NCBI GenBank assembly: GCA_965262355.1
Contig: OZ253534.1
Coordinates: 3,425,794 to 3,489,793, forward strand
From: Candidatus Multivorans sp.
Lineage (GTDB): Bacteria > Acidobacteriota > Thermoanaerobaculia > Multivoradales > Multivoraceae
DNA length: 64,000 nucleotides
Reading direction: 5' to 3'
The notes under the pieces were generated by a model. That model did not search any database and had not been told where the DNA came from. It saw nothing but the letters and a program-made list of their open reading frames with translations. The first letter of the stretch is position 1, and each line of letters opens with the position of its first letter. The translations under genes were made by a program, and so were the position numbers. Below are positions 49,962-54,025 of this stretch, piece after piece.

Positions 49962-50723
49962 ATGATGAAACCAGTTTGCTTTGTCATGGGCGCGGGCGCC
50001 GGGATCGGCGGTACCGCCGGCAAGAGGTTTGCTCGCGAGGGGTACCACGCGGTTCTCTGTCGCCGGAGCGACGAAGACGGGCTGAACGCTCTGGTCGCCG
50101 GCATTCACGAGGAGGGAGGGGATGCGTCCGGCTTTCTCCTGAACGCCGTCAAGGAGAACGCCATCGAGGATCAGATTGCCCAGGTGGAGGAGGAGATCGG
50201 GCCGATCGAAGTGATGATCTACAACCTCGGCGCCCAGATCGGCGATCGGGCGCTCGCCGATACCAGCTACAAGGCCTTCGAGCTCGGCTGGCGCATGGCC
50301 ACGTTCGGCCTCTTCCGGACAGCCTCCGCGGTCTGCCCCCGCATGGCTGAGCGTGGCCATGGAACGCTGATCGTTACCTCAGCCACAGCCGCGGCGCGCG
50401 GCAATGCAGGACAGCACTCCCACGCGGCCGCGATGGGGGGACGCCGCATGCTCTGCCAGACGCTGAACGCCGAGTTCGCCGCAAAGGGAATTCACGTGGC
50501 TCATGTGCTCGTGGATGGATCGGTCGATGCACCGGACACGCTAGGCAAGATGCTTGGGGCAGAGCGGTTCGAGGCTCTCCGGAACACGAAGGGAGCGGCC
50601 GACGGCCTCATCCTGCCCGAGCAGGTGGCGGAGACCTACGTCCATCTCGTGCAACAGCATCGGTCCACCTGGACCTTCGAGTTGGACGTGCGTGCGTACT
50701 CCGACAAGGCCTGGTGGAACTGA
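49962..50723 (+). CDS. SDR-family oxidoreductase, divergent from TauD copy 1
   Basis: MMKPVCFVMGAGAGIGGTAGKRFAREGYHAVLCRRS…. Confidence 0.8.
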   Translation: MMKPVCFVMGAGAGIGGTAGKRFAREGYHAVLCRRSDEDGLNALVAGIHEEGGDASGFLLNAVKENAIEDQIAQVEEEIGPIEVMIYNLGAQIGDRALADTSYKAFELGWRMATFGLFRTASAVCPRMAERGHGTLIVTSATAAARGNAGQHSHAAAMGGRRMLCQTLNAEFAAKGIHVAHVLVDGSVDAPDTLGKMLGAERFEALRNTKGAADGLILPEQVAETYVHLVQQHRSTWTFELDVRAYSDKAWWN

Positions 50724-50841
50724 CGTACCGACGGGTGCTGTTCCCGTCGCGCTGTACAGTGTGCGAGTGGACATCAAGGTAGATACGCGAGGCCGTGAGG
50801 CCGGCCCCCCCGGCTACTTCGACGACGCCGACGGCTTCCTC

Positions 50842-52689
50842 ATGCCGTTGGCTCCCAACACGAGATCCCGCCGCATTCCCCTCGGTGACTTTCCGACCGG
50901 TCCCGAGGTCGGCACGCGACTACCCGAGGTGGTCGCGATCGACCAATACGGTCGCTCGGTCGACCTGCATGCGGACCGCCGTGGCCAACCGGCGGTCCTG
51001 GTCTTCTCCCGATCAGCGGTGTGGTGACCCCCCTGTCGAACCCAGCTGGTCGAGCTGGAGCGAGGAATGGCCGCTTTCGATGCCGCCGGGGTCAAGCTCT
51101 ACACCCTGACCTATGACGAGGTCGATGCGCTCGCCGACTACTCCAATGCCATGGGGGTCACTTTCACCATGCTGTCGGACCCGAACAGCGAGGTGATTCG
51201 AGCGTTCGGGATCCTCAACACGCTCATCCCGCCGGACGAGCACCCCTGGTACGGGATCCCCTTTCCCGGGGCCTACGCGATCGATGCCGACGGCATCATC
51301 GTCGCCAAGTTCTTCGACCGCAACTTTGGTGCGAGATTCGGACCCGAGCAGCTCCTCAACGCTGCTCTCGGCCGGAGGTTCGAGGTGGAGCCCGCGGCAA
51401 GCCCGGCGGAGCAGGTGAGTGTCGACGTGATCCTCGACGCCGACCGGCTGCTCTCGGGCGTCATTCACGAGATCGTCGCGACCTTCCGGGTACCGGAAGG
51501 GCAGCATCTCTACGGCGAGCCGGTACCGGACGGCCTGGTGGCTGCCACGATCGAAGTCGACGACGCTCCCGGCATCATCAGCCGCACTCTGGTCGCACCG
51601 CCTACTTCCAGGTTGACCCTCGCCGGGTCCGGCGACACCCTCGAAGTCTACGAGGGCGACGTGGTGCTGCGGCTACCGATCGCACAAAACGGCAGAGCCA
51701 TGCAGAAGGCCGACGGCAAGCGCTATGTCGACATCAGCGGCAGGGTCCGTTGGCAAGCGTGCGACGACGTGGAGTGCGGTCTACCTCGGTCGCAGAGCTT
51801 CGACTTCCGGGTCGAAGCCGGTTTCCCGGTCCTCCCGGACATGGGCCCAGGGGTGGGACGAGTACCGGAAATGAACGGTGCTGCCCACTTCAAGAAGATG
51901 ATGGAGCGGAAGTCCATGTGGTCCATGCTCAACTGGGGCACGGTGATGGGGATCGACGCCTTCTGCGACGCTCTGGAGTTCCCGCTGCTTCCGCTCCCGG
52001 AGGTGCGGGCCGGTGAACCTACCCGCTACCGACCCGCGGAGGCCGTCGACGATGGCGCCTGGGTTCCCATGATCCCCAACGATGGCGAGGGTGAGAACGA
52101 AGCCGACGTCTACGATCGGCTTCCCGCTTCCCGTCGCTTCGTGCCGAACGTGATTCGGGCCATGTCCCTCGTGCCCGATGCCCTGCGTAATCTGCTCGAC
52201 CTTCTGTTTCCCTTCTACCTGGCGGGTCACAACCCAAAGTCTGGCAGCCTGGACCGCAGGCAGACGGAGTTGGTCGCCGGCCGGTTATCCGCCCTCAACG
52301 AGTGCTTCTACTGAACGACCGCACACGCACAGATGCTCCGGGCGAGCAGTCAGGGCAGCGATGTGGACTTCGAGGCGATCACTAGGGGTGCCAGCGATCA
52401 AGTGACCGGGGTGGCGTATGGCGCAGAGTTGATCGCCTACGCGGATGCGGTAGTTGCCCGGTCACCGGAGGCGACACAGGCCCGCGACGCCGTCCAGAAG
52501 TCGTTGGGAGATGCAGCGGTCGTCGACGTCGCCGCCGTCATCGCGAACTTTCAGCGCATGGTTCGCATCGCCGACGGAATCGGGATCCCCCTCGGCGAAG
52601 AGCTCGATCTTCGCTCGGCGGACCTTCGACACGAGATCAGGATCAACGAATTCGCCAGTGCCGCAGGGCGCAGGATCAGCGCGACGTGA
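50842..52689 (+). CDS. Candidate two-selenocysteine redox protein: TlpA-like thioredoxin-fold domain (W-U-P-P-C), DsbD-alpha-like domain, AhpD-like domain (C-F-Y-U-x3-H). TGA codons at 51025-51027 and 52312-52314 are read as Sec
   Basis: Three consecutive ORFs (50554-51027, 51067-52314, 52333-52689) share one frame and are separated only by TGA codons. TGA 1 replaces the first Cys of …AVLVFSRSAVW[TGA]PPCRTQL… TGA 2 replaces the second Cys of …RLSALNECFY[TGA]TTAHAQ… (AhpD CxxCxxxH). Domain homology is continuous across both TGAs. Hairpins sit 15-20 nt downstream of each TGA. The middle domain carries a DsbD-alpha-like WQACDDVECGLP motif. Start codon uncertain (ATG 50842 or GTG 50761/50767). 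Confidence 0.6.
51042..51058 (+). ncRNA. Putative bacterial SECIS-like hairpin after the first in-frame UGA
   Basis: CCAGC-UGGUCGA-GCUGG (5-bp stem, G-containing 7-nt loop), starting ~15 nt 3' of the UGA at 51025-51027. Confidence 0.35.
52334..52348 (+). ncRNA. Putative bacterial SECIS-like hairpin after the second in-frame UGA
   Basis: UGCUC-CGGGC-GAGCA (5-6-bp stem, GGG apical loop), starting ~20 nt 3' of the UGA at 52312-52314. Confidence 0.35.
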
Positions 52690-52790
52690 GCTGCGGCCCT
52701 CCGCGATCTCGTCGCTACACCCCCCCACCACGCGGTCACCGGTCGGCGGCGGGTGCCAGCTCACGATCCATCACCAAGAGGAGAATCATC

Positions 52791-53801
52791 ATGACTGACG
52801 ACCGCTCCAGCGTTATCAACTTTCTTTCGATCTTTGGGATGTTCATCGTGGCGATCGGGACCGCGGTGTTCTCTCCGCCCGTGTTTGCGCAGTCGTCTCA
52901 GCAGGTCTTCGAAGCTAGCGACGCCGACAGCGACGGCGCGATCAGCAAGGCCCAAACTCCCGATCCCAGCTTCGGGACCCTGAACCCGAACGCGGCAAGT
53001 TTCATGATCGTTCCGCCGGATCAGGACGGAATGTTGTACATCCTCAACCTCATGAAGTACCGGGACAAGGCCGAATATCCCGACGGGCGCGAGACGAACC
53101 TGACGGGCGAAGAAGCCGACAGGCTGTACAACCCGTTACCGGAAGTTGAGAAAGTGGGCGGCGGGCTAGTTTACGCCGGCAGCGTCGAAGCGCAGCTCGT
53201 AGGCAAAGATCCGACGTGGGATCGGGTCGGAATCGTCATGTATCCGAGTCGGGCGAAGATCGCGCAAATGAGGGCGAGCGCGGGTTTCCAAGAGACCGTC
53301 GTTCACAAAGGCCCAAGCCTCGCCGCGTCCCAGATCATCGTCACGATACCCGAAGAAGATTGGACGTATTCGGATAAGCCTCCGGTCACCGCGGCCGACG
53401 TTCCCCATCCGGCGTCCGCCGACGACCCGTCCTTTACTCTCTTTCATCTGGTGAAGTATCGCGCCGTCGCCGAGTACCCCGAAGGCAGCAGCGAACCCCA
53501 ACGGAGTGGACGCGAAGCGATGGACGTGTTTTGGAAATCTCTGGAGGGAAGTCTTCACGAGGCCGGCGTGGAGCCGATGCTCAAAGCGGAAGTCGCCGGT
53601 GTTCTGGTCGGCGACGGGCGAGATTGGGACGACTATCGCATCCTGAGGTTCCCGAGCCGTCGCGCCTACGAGGCCGTACTCGCGAGAATTGAGTCGAGCG
53701 ATTCTGCCATTCACTTTGCCGCTGCCGTCGAGGACGAGTACCGTTTGCAACTGGTGGACCTGATGGACAGGACGGCCAATCCCCCAACGCCTCCGAAGTA
53801 G
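52791..53801 (+). CDS. Secreted protein with tandem DUF1330-like domains (paralog of 48067-48981)
   Basis: N-terminal TM/signal (FLSIFGMFIVAIGTAVFS), then LYILNLMKYRDKAEYPDGRETNLTGEEADRLY…VMYPSRAKIAQM and FTLFHLVKYRAVAEYPEGSSEPQRSGREAMDVF…ILRFPSRRAYEAV. Confidence 0.55.
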   Translation: MTDDRSSVINFLSIFGMFIVAIGTAVFSPPVFAQSSQQVFEASDADSDGAISKAQTPDPSFGTLNPNAASFMIVPPDQDGMLYILNLMKYRDKAEYPDGRETNLTGEEADRLYNPLPEVEKVGGGLVYAGSVEAQLVGKDPTWDRVGIVMYPSRAKIAQMRASAGFQETVVHKGPSLAASQIIVTIPEEDWTYSDKPPVTAADVPHPASADDPSFTLFHLVKYRAVAEYPEGSSEPQRSGREAMDVFWKSLEGSLHEAGVEPMLKAEVAGVLVGDGRDWDDYRILRFPSRRAYEAVLARIESSDSAIHFAAAVEDEYRLQLVDLMDRTANPPTPPK

Positions 53802-53948: not shown

Positions 53949-54025
53949 TGGTGTCCCCAACGGGATTCGAACCCGTGTTGCCAGCTTGAAAGGCTGGAGT
54001 CCTGACCTGGCTAGACGATGGGGAC
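53949..54025 (-). tRNA. tRNA-Glu: tRNA-Glu (anticodon UUC)
   Basis: Reverse complement folds as acceptor GTCCCCA/TGGGGAC, D-arm GTCT/GGAC, anticodon stem CCAGC/GCTGG with loop CTTTCAA (anticodon TTC), T-arm ACGGG-TTCGAAT-CCCGT, discriminator A plus CCA. Coordinates ±2. Confidence 0.8.

What the first reader, a model, noticed from the sequence alone, without database searches (positions are those of the whole stretch)
51025..51060. SECIS-like hairpin 15 nt downstream of the first in-frame UGA
CCAGC-UGGUCGA-GCUGG forms a 5-bp stem with a G-containing apical loop at the distance expected for a bacterial SECIS. It lies in coding sequence that continues the thioredoxin-like domain.
Basis: seen in the sequence. 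Interest (0 to 1): 0.55.

Follow-up and report, generated by a model that had tools for sequence, protein, structure and literature searches.

The report
Conserved SECIS hairpin in Prx-like selenoprotein

Summary
The hairpin exists as described: CCAGCU (51042-51047), loop GGUCG (51048-51052), AGCUGG (51053-51058), with 20 nt between the UGA (51025-51027) and the loop. On this sequence alone it is weak evidence. It meets all four published bSECIS criteria, but about 6-10% of TGA triplets in this 65% GC window do too, and window-scale folds are no better than shuffles.

The comparative evidence is strong. All 80 homologous genome loci, from at least six phylum-level groups at 47-100% protein identity, carry the same in-frame TGA, aligned to the first Cys of WCxxC in Cys homologues. 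All can form the same 6-bp helix. Two pairs covary: C-G/G-C in 59/21 loci with three independent switches, and G-C/G-U/A-U in 69/6/5. Synonymous sites in the hairpin are almost frozen (0.42 against 1.66 bits). RNAalifold predicts only this helix. Ten further loci, about 29% identical, keep a hairpin at the same distance. Eleven of 14 Cys forms lack it, including a Cys paralogue beside a Sec paralogue on one contig.

The gene (50767-52689) encodes a Prx-like UxxC domain, a DsbD_N-like domain and an AhpD-related domain with a second Sec (CFYUT). It is a new member of a known kind. SelB binding and the Sec machinery were not tested.

The parts
50767..52689 (+). Selenoprotein gene of 640 codons plus stop, with two in-frame UGA codons. 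Domains: Prx-like (AhpC/TSA), DsbD_N-like, and AhpD-related (CFYUT). The start is GTG 50767 and the terminator is also TGA (52687-52689).
   Evidence: Translation. Pfam gives AhpC-TSA 5e-24, DsbD_N 4.5e-8, CMD 6.7e-6. NCBIfam NF041238 AhpD_rel_CFYUT scores 265.5 bits against a cutoff of 175. The GTG start aligns with the conserved ATG of 'M[DE]I[KQE]VD[TK]RG' in homologues.
51025..51027 (+). First in-frame UGA, the predicted Sec codon of the W-U-P-P-C (UxxC) redox motif.
   Evidence: It aligns with the first Cys of WCxxC in Cys homologues P0001, P0031, P0037, P0038, P0066, P0070. TGA is present at this exact codon in 80/80 genome loci and in 10 more distant loci.
51042..51047 (+). 5' arm of the SECIS minihelix (CCAGCU). 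It comprises the third base of the Thr codon plus the Gln codon and the first two bases of the Leu codon.
   Evidence: fold; 100% of cells paired, with pairs 18-34 and 21-31 of alignment A3 covarying.
51048..51052 (+). Apical loop GGUCG. The G-U at loop positions 2-3 is invariant in 80/80 loci.
   Evidence: column counts: G24 and U25 (numbered from the U of UGA = 0) are 80/80, loop position 1 is G in 73/80, and the synonymous C of the Val codon is C in 74/80. The layout matches the GGUC loop of E. coli fdhF (G23/U24 role from PMC8659212).
51053..51058 (+). 3' arm of the SECIS minihelix (AGCUGG). It comprises the last two bases of the Glu codon, the Leu codon and the first base of the following Glu/Gln codon.
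   Evidence: Codon GAG is used in 78/78 loci with Glu at that position, and never GAA.
52312..52314 (+). Second in-frame UGA, the predicted Sec of the C-F-Y-U-T motif in the AhpD-related domain.
   Evidence: NCBIfam NF041238 'AhpD_rel_CFYUT, alkylhydroperoxidase-related (seleno)protein' at 7.7e-79. CFY*T..H is also found with TGA in L003, L004, L005, L030 and L074.
52334..52348 (+). Candidate, weaker SECIS hairpin for the second UGA: UGCUC / loop CGGGC / GAGCA, with 24 nt from UGA to loop.
   Evidence: dG is -4.9 kcal/mol, below the -7.5 model threshold. The same stem is kept in L003-L005 and L030, and kept through two U-A to U-G changes in L074. Only 7 loci were available, so this is tentative.

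Best explanation
The hairpin at 51042-51058 is the bacterial SECIS minihelix that recodes the UGA at 51025-51027 as selenocysteine. The gene encodes a Prx-like (AhpC/TSA-fold, UxxC) thiol:disulfide oxidoreductase.

Proposed mechanism (inferred by analogy with E. coli fdhF): when the ribosome reaches the UGA, the 6-bp helix about 14 nt downstream is still folded. Its apical loop presents the invariant G-U at loop positions 2-3. The C-terminal winged-helix domains of SelB, carrying GTP and Sec-tRNA(Sec), bind this loop. That tethers the ternary complex next to the A site, so it outcompetes release factor 2. Sec is inserted as the N-terminal residue of the U-P-P-C redox pair and translation continues through the hairpin.

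Because the element lies inside the ORF, it freezes both the peptide (T/S-Q-L-V-E/Q-L-E/Q) and the synonymous sites of those codons.

Shown here: the UGA/Cys correspondence, the helix, its covariation, the suppression of synonymous change, and its link to Sec rather than Cys forms. Inferred: SelB binding, actual Sec insertion, and the presence of selA/selB/selC/selD in this genome.
For: (1) The UGA sits at the catalytic Cys position. W-U-P-P-C-R aligns with W-C-x-x-C-[RK] in Cys homologues, within an AhpC/TSA domain.

(2) All 80 genome loci keep the TGA in frame, with the ORF conserved on both sides. By record title they are Acidobacteriota, Actinomycetota/Acidimicrobiia, Dehalococcoidia, Gemmatimonadota, Myxococcota and Pseudomonadales, at 47-100% amino-acid identity. 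The same gene ends at a TGA that is a true stop, so UGA is not reassigned genome-wide and a local signal is needed.

(3) All four bSECIS model criteria (PMC13188914) are met.

(4) RNAalifold on the 80 sequences (UGA plus 57 nt) predicts this helix and nothing else. All 414 distinct pair cells are standard pairs. Sliding the 3' partner by 1-3 nt drops pairing to 1-45%.

(5) Covariation. Pair 17-33 (numbered from the U of UGA = 0) is C-G in 59 loci and G-C in 21, and is never mismatched. It couples a synonymous change (ACC/ACG) to an amino-acid change (Glu/Gln). It switched three times independently on a tree built without the hairpin codons. Pair 20-30 is G-C in 69, G-U in 6 and A-U in 5. A20 arose three times, always with U30.

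(6) G-U and U-G pairs are tolerated. They would be C-A mismatches on the antisense strand, so this is a sense-strand RNA structure, not a DNA palindrome.

(7) Third-position entropy at conserved 4/6-fold codons is 0.42 bits in the hairpin (n=4) against 1.66 bits elsewhere (n=77), Mann-Whitney p=4e-4. Val is GUC in 74/80 loci and Glu is GAG in 78/78. The Pro and Arg codons directly after the UGA vary freely.

(8) Ten loci of a subfamily only about 29% identical to the window protein (W-U-P-[YF]-C-K-x-Q-L-V-[EQ]-L) keep a 6-7-bp hairpin with the loop starting 21 nt after the UGA. L098 has compensatory A20-U30 and G23-C27.

(9) Eleven of 14 Cys forms have no such hairpin and have a variable peptide there. 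On contig L105 a Cys paralogue with the same QLVELQ peptide carries GAA, which breaks the helix. A Sec paralogue about 1 kb away keeps the helix.

(10) The loop GGUCG at 20 nt resembles the fdhF loop GGUC at 18 nt. G23/U24 of fdhF are the SelB determinants (PMC8659212).
Against: No experiment and no SelB, SelA, SelD or tRNA-Sec gene was seen. The window holds only tRNA-Glu and the rest of the genome could not be searched.

No Rfam family matches, even at E <= 10.

On the single sequence the fold is not better than shuffles at 46-66 nt, and 6-10% of TGA triplets in the window have a comparable hairpin.

There is no bulged U in the 5' arm, which E. coli SelB requires (PMC8659212).

Three Cys-form loci (L083-L085, closely related to one another) keep an equally good hairpin. 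This shows that the peptide QLVELQ with GC-rich codons can give the structure without a UGA.

Five distant Sec-form loci have hairpins of only -6.7 kcal/mol, above the -7.5 model threshold. Eighteen of the 90 Sec forms in all miss that threshold.

Many of the 80 loci are related, so raw counts overstate the number of independent events. The tree-based counts are 3 and 3.
Confidence: 0.9

Rival explanations
1. The hairpin has no RNA function. It is a by-product of a conserved peptide (Q-L-V-E-L) whose preferred GC-rich codons (CAG CUG GUC GAG CUG) happen to be self-complementary. Sec insertion, if it occurs, would then depend on something else.
For: The helix is made of codons for a conserved peptide. 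Cys-form loci L083-L085 with the same peptide form an equally stable hairpin (-10.1 kcal/mol) without any UGA. In this 65% GC window 6-10% of TGA triplets have such a hairpin.
Against: Codon bias does not explain it. Other Val, Leu and Glu codons of the same genes vary almost to saturation (1.3-2.4 bits), while those in the hairpin are near-fixed.

Low-GC lineages (L054, L055, L058: CAA CUA GUU GAG UUG) keep the helix through a compensatory G-C to A-U change.

Pair 17-33 links a synonymous site to an amino-acid change and never mismatches among the 80 genome loci. In five distant Sec-form loci that outer pair is mismatched, but an added 23-27 pair keeps a 6-bp helix.

The peptide itself is not required by the protein. 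Cys forms have THLASFQ, TQLQDLQ, TQLSDLQ, TQLADIN, GHLVQFQ or TQLIEME at that position.

The Cys paralogue on L105 has QLVELQ but a helix-breaking GAA.
Confidence: 0.04
2. The TGA is a genuine stop, a pseudogene lesion or an assembly error. On this view the region holds separate or broken genes and the hairpin is irrelevant, or acts as some other post-stop signal.
For: Gene callers split the gene. Most database homologues are fragments that begin just after the TGA, for example 'MTQLVELQ...' and 'MELQ...'.
Against: The TGA is at the identical codon in 80/80 independent assemblies from at least six phylum-level groups and in 10 further metagenomic loci.

Protein conservation continues in frame across it. 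RSAVW on one side and PPCRTQ on the other are among the best-conserved residues.

It replaces the catalytic Cys of Cys homologues.

The fragments after the TGA lack the N-terminal half of the AhpC/TSA fold and would not be functional alone.
Confidence: 0.02
3. The conserved hairpin is a different kind of element that merely overlaps this position. Candidates are a protein-binding DNA palindrome (CAGCTG), a ribosome-pausing or mRNA-stability structure, or a signal for UGA read-through by a near-cognate tRNA (Trp or Cys) rather than by SelB.
For: CAGCTG is a perfect DNA palindrome. SelB binding was not tested. The bulged U that E. coli SelB needs is absent.
Against: G-U and U-G pairs occur in 7 loci, which is compatible only with sense-strand RNA pairing.

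The element is tied to UGA-containing forms and is lost in most Cys forms.

Its distance from the UGA (20-21 nt to the loop) is fixed in 90/90 Sec forms.

Its loop carries the G-U that defines bacterial SECIS loops.

The second UGA of the same gene lies in a family that NCBI curates as a selenoprotein (NF041238).
Confidence: 0.04

Closest known systems
Bacterial SECIS consensus model (bSECISearch; Zhang & Gladyshev 2005, as summarised in PMC13188914)
   Same: It lies in the ORF immediately 3' of an in-frame UGA. [quoted passage not shown] The upper stem is 6 bp, the UGA-to-loop distance is 20 nt and dG is -8.8 kcal/mol. All are inside the model's ranges.
   Different: Nothing structural differs. 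Only the minimal upper helix is conserved. The lower stem seen in this one sequence is not.
E. coli fdhF SECIS minihelix (GGUUGCAGGUCUGCACC)
   Same: Both are minimal hairpins shortly after the UGA, starting 11 nt downstream in fdhF against 14 nt here. The UGA-to-loop distance is 18 nt against 20 nt. The loop is GGUC against GGUCG, and the G-U at loop positions 2-3 (fdhF G23/U24) corresponds to an invariant G-U here.
   Different: There is no bulged U in the 5' arm (fdhF U17, essential for E. coli SelB). The stem is fully paired and more stable (-8.8 against -4.2 kcal/mol). The stem sequence and the host gene family are unrelated.
Prx-like thiol:disulfide oxidoreductase selenoproteins (PF00578, UxxC; 'Prx-like 1' of the Sargasso Sea/GOS surveys: PMC1088965, PMC2398784, PMC13188914)
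   Same: It has an AhpC/TSA fold, a UxxC motif replacing CxxC, abundant Cys homologues and a marine/symbiont distribution.
   Different: This subfamily carries a C-terminal DsbD_N-like domain with a conserved Q-x-C-x4-C. In this genome it is also fused to an AhpD-related domain, giving two Sec residues in one chain.
NCBIfam NF041238 AhpD_rel_CFYUT (alkylhydroperoxidase-related selenoprotein); 'AhpD-like' CxxU selenoproteins
   Same: The C-terminal 240 residues score 265.5 bits against a cutoff of 175, with the exact CFYUT motif. Operon linkage of Prx-like and AhpD-like selenoprotein genes is already reported (PMC13188914).
   Different: Only model positions 111-357 are present. The first ~110 positions are replaced by the fusion to the upstream gene. 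In close relatives (L003-L005, L030) it is a separate downstream gene.

Membership tests
Bacterial SECIS element (bSECIS consensus model) | Lies within the coding region directly downstream of an in-frame UGA that corresponds to Cys in homologues | tested here: met
   UGA 51025-51027 aligns with the first Cys of WCxxC. The hairpin starts 14 nt downstream.
Bacterial SECIS element (bSECIS consensus model) | Apical loop of 3-9 nt on an upper stem of 4-16 bp | tested here: met
   The loop is 5 nt (GGUCG) and the stem is 6 bp. Criteria from PMC13188914.
Bacterial SECIS element (bSECIS consensus model) | At least one G in the first two loop positions (typically G[G/U]) | tested here: met
   The loop begins G-G-U. 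Position 1 is G in 73/80 loci, position 2 is G in 80/80 and position 3 is U in 80/80.
Bacterial SECIS element (bSECIS consensus model) | 16-37 nt between the UGA and the apical loop | tested here: met
   20 nt here. 20-21 nt in 90/90 Sec-form loci.
Bacterial SECIS element (bSECIS consensus model) | Minimum free energy <= -7.5 kcal/mol | tested here: met
   -8.8 kcal/mol for the 17-mer. 72/90 Sec-form loci pass. Five distant loci reach only -6.7 and one -7.3.
Bacterial SECIS element (bSECIS consensus model) | Structure conserved among Sec-containing homologues, with compensatory change | tested here: met
   100% of cells paired. Two pairs have double changes (CG/GC 59/21; GC/GU/AU 69/6/5), with three independent switches each.
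Bacterial SECIS element (bSECIS consensus model) | Bound by SelB and required for selenium-dependent UGA read-through | not testable with these tools
   Needs a binding assay, a reporter assay or mass spectrometry.
Bacterial SECIS element (bSECIS consensus model) | Host genome encodes selA, selB, selC (tRNA-Sec) and selD | not tested
   ARAGORN finds only tRNA-Glu in the 64-kb window.
E. coli fdhF-type SECIS | Bulged U in the 5' arm (U17) in addition to the loop G23/U24 | tested here: not met
   The stem is perfectly paired with no bulge in 80/80 loci. The loop G-U is present. It works like fdhF but is not of that exact type (PMC8659212).
Rfam RNA families (release 15) | Covariance-model match at or near gathering score | tested here: not met
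   No SECIS-type hit in 50000-53500 at E <= 10, and none in the window at gathering thresholds.
Prx-like UxxC selenoprotein (PF00578) | AhpC/TSA domain with Sec in the first position of the CxxC-equivalent motif, and Cys homologues | tested here: met
   PF00578 at 5.2e-24 and 85 bits against a cutoff of 26. W-U-P-P-C against W-C-x-x-C.
NF041238 AhpD_rel_CFYUT | Whole-protein score above the curated cutoff, with the CFYUT motif | tested here: met
   265.5 bits against a cutoff of 175. The motif C-F-Y-U-T-T-A-H is present. Only profile positions 111-357 of 357 are covered.

The most novel reading that the evidence does not exclude
The peptide Q-L-V-E-L that follows the CxxC motif in this Prx-like/DsbD_N family may be a 'pre-SECIS'. 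Its commonest codons already fold into a hairpin with a G-U loop at the right distance from the first Cys codon. A single TGY-to-TGA change would then create a working Sec codon. This would explain three observations. The family has very many Sec forms (2187 hits at E <= 1e-20 in one search, almost all listed ones truncated just after the UGA). An almost identical 15-nt element (CAGCUGGUCGAGCUG) is found in at least six phylum-level groups. Some Cys forms (L083-L085) carry the intact hairpin. The alternative is that those Cys forms are recent Sec-to-Cys reversions with a fossil SECIS, and that the wide spread reflects horizontal transfer of the gene together with its SECIS. In addition, the two-Sec fusion of a Prx-like/DsbD_N module to an AhpD-related module in Ca. 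Multivorans could be a self-contained selenium-based peroxide-reducing relay.
Probability: 0.2. Interest if true: 0.5.

Novelty: new member of a known kind. Interest (0 to 1): 0.3.

Why it matters
It shows that the split ORFs at 50767-52689 are one selenoprotein gene with two Sec codons. Automatic annotation will miss this, as the truncated database entries show.

It also provides an unusually clean, covariation-supported example of a minimal bacterial SECIS from uncultured Acidobacteriota and Actinomycetota symbionts. The element is a 6-bp stem with loop GGUCG, 20 nt from the UGA. It could serve as a training case for SECIS models, because no Rfam family matched this element, and as a test substrate for non-proteobacterial SelB.

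It illustrates how an in-ORF RNA signal freezes both a peptide and its synonymous sites. It does not change the understanding of Sec decoding.

Tried and rejected
(1) Single-sequence thermodynamics. Folds of 46-101 nt around both UGAs were no better than shuffles, so they do not decide the question. The experimentally defined fdhF SECIS also reaches only z = -1.33.

(2) Rfam scans at E <= 10 (region) and at gathering thresholds (whole window) gave no SECIS hit.

(3) The first protein search, with the full 615-aa read-through protein, returned only one hit because candidate words saturated the filter. It was replaced by the exhaustive representative search.

(4) The search for related loci with the 31-sequence alignment failed for lack of a conserved stretch. 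It succeeded with 10 closer sequences.

(5) The lower stem UCG/CGA predicted in the window sequence was rejected as part of the element. Codon 12 is AAR (Lys) in 31 loci and cannot pair, and RNAalifold drops it.

(6) A scan of the window for other in-frame TGA selenoprotein candidates was too noisy in this GC-rich sequence. It gave 191 candidates and only the two known sites were convincing.

(7) A literature search for Sec use in Ca. Multivorans or Ca. Poriferisodalis found nothing relevant.

(8) One contig look-up returned no DNA.

(9) The idea that the fusion to the AhpD-related domain is a 1-nt indel artefact was rejected. The sequence diverges completely after KKMMER, and the fusion is shared by two separate assemblies.
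Full report
**1. What is in the sequence**

The + strand between 50767 and 52689 is one reading frame interrupted by two TGA codons, at 51025-51027 and 52312-52314. It ends at a third TGA, 52687-52689.

The read-through product has three domains. An AhpC/TSA (thioredoxin-fold) domain scores 5e-24. A DsbD_N-like domain scores 4.5e-8. A CMD/AhpD-like domain scores 6.7e-6. NCBIfam places the C-terminal 240 residues in NF041238 'AhpD_rel_CFYUT, alkylhydroperoxidase-related (seleno)protein' at 265.5 bits against a cutoff of 175.

The first UGA lies in the motif SAVW-U-PPC-R. The second lies in NEC-F-Y-U-TTAH.

The start is GTG 50767. It aligns with the conserved ATG of 'M[DE]I[KQE]VD[TK]RG' in homologues.

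The window is 100% identical to chromosome OZ242167.1 of a Candidatus Multivorans MAG. That genus belongs to Acidobacteriota, Thermoanaerobaculia.

**2. The observation**

RNAfold gives CCAGCU (51042-51047), loop GGUCG (51048-51052) and AGCUGG (51053-51058).

The 17-mer alone folds at -8.8 kcal/mol, with z = -2.65.

The published bSECIS model requires a 3-9-nt loop, a 4-16-bp stem, G in the first two loop positions, 16-37 nt between UGA and loop, and MFE <= -7.5 (PMC13188914). Here the values are 5 nt, 6 bp, GG, 20 nt and -8.8.

On one sequence this proves little. Folds of 46-66 nt are not better than shuffles. Of the 1465 TGA triplets in the window, 9.6% have a model-compliant perfect hairpin and 6.3% have one as stable as this. 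No Rfam family matches. For scale, the experimentally defined E. coli fdhF SECIS, whose sequence I verified in 5419 E. coli genomes, gives only z = -1.33. Its 17-nt minihelix gives -4.2 kcal/mol.

**3. Homologues with the UGA**

An exhaustive HMMER search with the segment after the UGA found 1670 relatives at E <= 0.001. Many begin at residue 1-2 exactly where the query begins ('MTQLVELQ...', 'MELQ...'). These are gene calls truncated just after a stop. Full-length relatives have W-C-x-x-C-[RK] where the window has W-U-P-P-C-R.

A scan of GTDB species genomes returned 458 related stretches, of which the best 80 were kept. By record title they come from Acidobacteriota, Acidimicrobiia, Dehalococcoidia, Gemmatimonadota, Myxococcota and Pseudomonadales. 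They are 47-100% identical in protein to the window.

All 80 have TGA at the identical codon. All 80 share the flanking peptide RS[AV]VW-U-PPCR-x-QLV-[EQ]-L-[EQ].

**4. Structure conservation and covariation**

In the 80-sequence alignment of UGA plus 57 nt (A3), RNAalifold predicts exactly one helix, the 6 bp above.

Every one of the 414 distinct pair cells is a standard pair. Sliding the 3' partner by 1-3 nt gives only 1-45% pairing.

Numbering below starts from the U of UGA = 0.

- **Pair 17-33** is C-G in 59 loci and G-C in 21, with no mismatch. It links the synonymous third base of a Thr/Ser codon (ACC/ACG) to the first base of a Glu/Gln codon.
- **Pair 20-30** is G-C in 69 loci, G-U in 6 and A-U in 5.
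- **Pair 21-29** has one U-G.

On a neighbour-joining tree built without the hairpin codons, both columns of pair 17-33 switch together three times. A20 arises three times, always on a U30 background, and U30 arises about eight times. This is the G-U-intermediate path expected for RNA helices.

The tolerated G-U pairs would be C-A on the other strand. The constraint is therefore on the sense RNA and not on a DNA palindrome.

**5. Synonymous sites**

Codon-level analysis of the 80 genes used 50 codons before and 260 codons after the UGA.

- Codon entropy in codons 6-10 after the UGA (CAG CUG GUC GAG CUG) averages 0.40 bits. At the other conserved, degenerate columns it averages 1.42 bits (121 such columns in all).
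- At 4/6-fold-degenerate conserved codons, third-position entropy is 0.42 bits in the hairpin (n=4) against 1.66 bits elsewhere (n=77). The Mann-Whitney p is 4e-4.
- Val is GUC in 74/80 loci and Glu is GAG in 78/78.
- The two Pro codons and the Arg codon directly after the UGA use all four third bases freely.

Codon bias cannot explain this. The low-GC Dehalococcoidia loci read CAA CUA GUU GAG UUG and still pair.

**6. More distant Sec forms and Cys controls**

A search with a relative about 29% identical to the window protein (P0057) gave 2187 hits at E <= 1e-20. Almost all the listed ones were again truncated after the UGA.

DNA for several of them has W-U-P-[YF]-C-K-x-Q-L-V-[EQ]-L and a 6-7-bp hairpin with a GUG or GUC triloop starting 21 nt after the UGA. 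These are L095-L098, L100-L104 and a paralogue on L105. L098 carries the compensatory A20-U30 and a new G23-C27 pair.

Overall, 90/90 Sec-form loci have a hairpin with the loop 20-21 nt from the UGA.

Cys forms were fetched from metagenomes and contigs (L081-L094, L099, L105, L106). They have a variable peptide at this place, such as THLASFQ, TQLQDLQ, TQLADIN, TQLIEME and GHLVQFQ. Eleven of 14 have no model-compliant hairpin.

The most telling case is contig L105. A Cys paralogue has the same QLVELQ peptide but uses GAA, which breaks pair 21-29. A Sec paralogue on the same contig keeps the full helix.

The exception is L083-L085, one close lineage with WCPYCRTQLVELQ. It keeps a -10.1 kcal/mol hairpin. 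These are either recent Sec-to-Cys reversions with a fossil SECIS, as described for other families (PMC1794560), or forms that pre-date Sec acquisition.

**7. Mechanism**

The best explanation is the standard bacterial one.

- The minihelix presents a loop whose positions 2-3 are an invariant G-U. This has the same layout as G23/U24 in the fdhF loop GGUC.
- In fdhF a 17-nt minihelix 11 nt from the UGA is the core of the element. Within it, U17, G23 and U24 are the only non-variable bases, and mutating U17 or G23 abolishes UGA read-through (PMC8659212).
- By analogy, SelB carrying GTP and Sec-tRNA(Sec) binds the loop and delivers Sec to the UGA in the A site.
- The same gene terminates at a TGA, so UGA is not generally reassigned and a local signal is required.

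Steps shown here: Sec/Cys correspondence, helix, covariation, synonymous constraint, and association with UGA forms. [quoted passage not shown] The window has only tRNA-Glu.

One difference from fdhF is that there is no bulged U in the 5' arm.

**8. Comparison with what is known**

Prx-like UxxC and AhpD-like CxxU proteins have been listed as predicted bacterial selenoproteins with bSECIS elements since the Sargasso Sea and GOS surveys (PMC1088965; PMC2398784). Operon linkage of Prx-like and AhpD-like selenoprotein genes is noted in a 2026 review (PMC13188914). NCBI already curates the CFYUT family.

The element is therefore a new, well-supported member of a known kind.

Three aspects are mildly new. 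First, the depth of comparative support for a minimal SECIS outside Proteobacteria and Firmicutes. Second, the near-identity of the 15-nt core across phyla. Third, the fusion in this genome and in L002 of the Prx-like/DsbD_N gene to a 5'-truncated AhpD-related gene, giving a two-Sec polypeptide. In the close relatives L003-L005 and L030 the two are separate genes.

**9. Verdict**

Novelty is low and interest is about 0.3.

Noticed in passing
window 51880-52314 (compare L003:1200-1360, L004:3830-3990): In the window and in L002 the Prx-like/DsbD_N gene runs in frame into an AhpD-related (CFYUT) domain that lacks about 110 N-terminal profile positions. In close relatives (L003, L004, L005, L030) the upstream gene ends at TAG after KKMIERRK, and the AhpD-related gene is separate and in another frame. 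The sequences diverge completely after KKMMER, so this is a rearrangement or fusion, not a 1-nt indel.
   Followed up: partly
window 52312-52348: The second in-frame UGA (CFY-U-TTAH) is followed by a weaker candidate SECIS: UGCUC / CGGGC / GAGCA, 24 nt to the loop, -4.9 kcal/mol. The stem is kept in L003-L005 and L030 (loop CGUGC), and kept in L074 through two U-A to U-G changes. Only 7 loci were available.
   Followed up: partly
L105:1-2139: One metagenomic contig carries three tandem paralogues of the Prx-like/DsbD_N gene. At least one is a Cys form (WCVYC, no hairpin) and one is a Sec form (W-U-PYC, hairpin intact). This serves as a natural same-genome control.
   Followed up: partly
L083:1627, L084:810, L085:1627: Cys-containing homologues (ADWCPYCRTQLVELQ) retain a 7-bp hairpin (-10.1 kcal/mol) at the SECIS position although the codon is TGC. 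This could be a fossil SECIS after Sec-to-Cys reversion or a pre-existing hairpin.
   Followed up: no
L001-L080 (record titles): The closest relatives of this Acidobacteriota gene include genes from unrelated phyla that are known or likely sponge or marine symbionts: Ca. Poriferisodalis (Acidimicrobiia) at 69-73% identity, a Myxococcota MAG at 74%, and Pseudomonadales/Azotimanducaceae at 47-49%. All share an almost identical 15-nt SECIS core. This suggests horizontal transfer of the gene together with its SECIS.
   Followed up: no
window 53949-54025 (- strand): tRNA-Glu (anticodon UUC) is the only tRNA in the window (ARAGORN; Rfam). No tRNA-Sec was found in the 64 kb.
   Followed up: yes
window 52686-53801 (+): The next long ORF (371 aa, GTG start) overlaps the selenoprotein gene's terminal TGA by 4 nt. 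Its function was not examined.
   Followed up: no
codon 28 after the UGA (window about 51109-51111): A conserved Ser codon in the motif L-S-Y-D has unusually low synonymous entropy (0.70 bits). It is the only 4/6-fold codon outside the hairpin below 1.2 bits. The cause is unknown.
   Followed up: no
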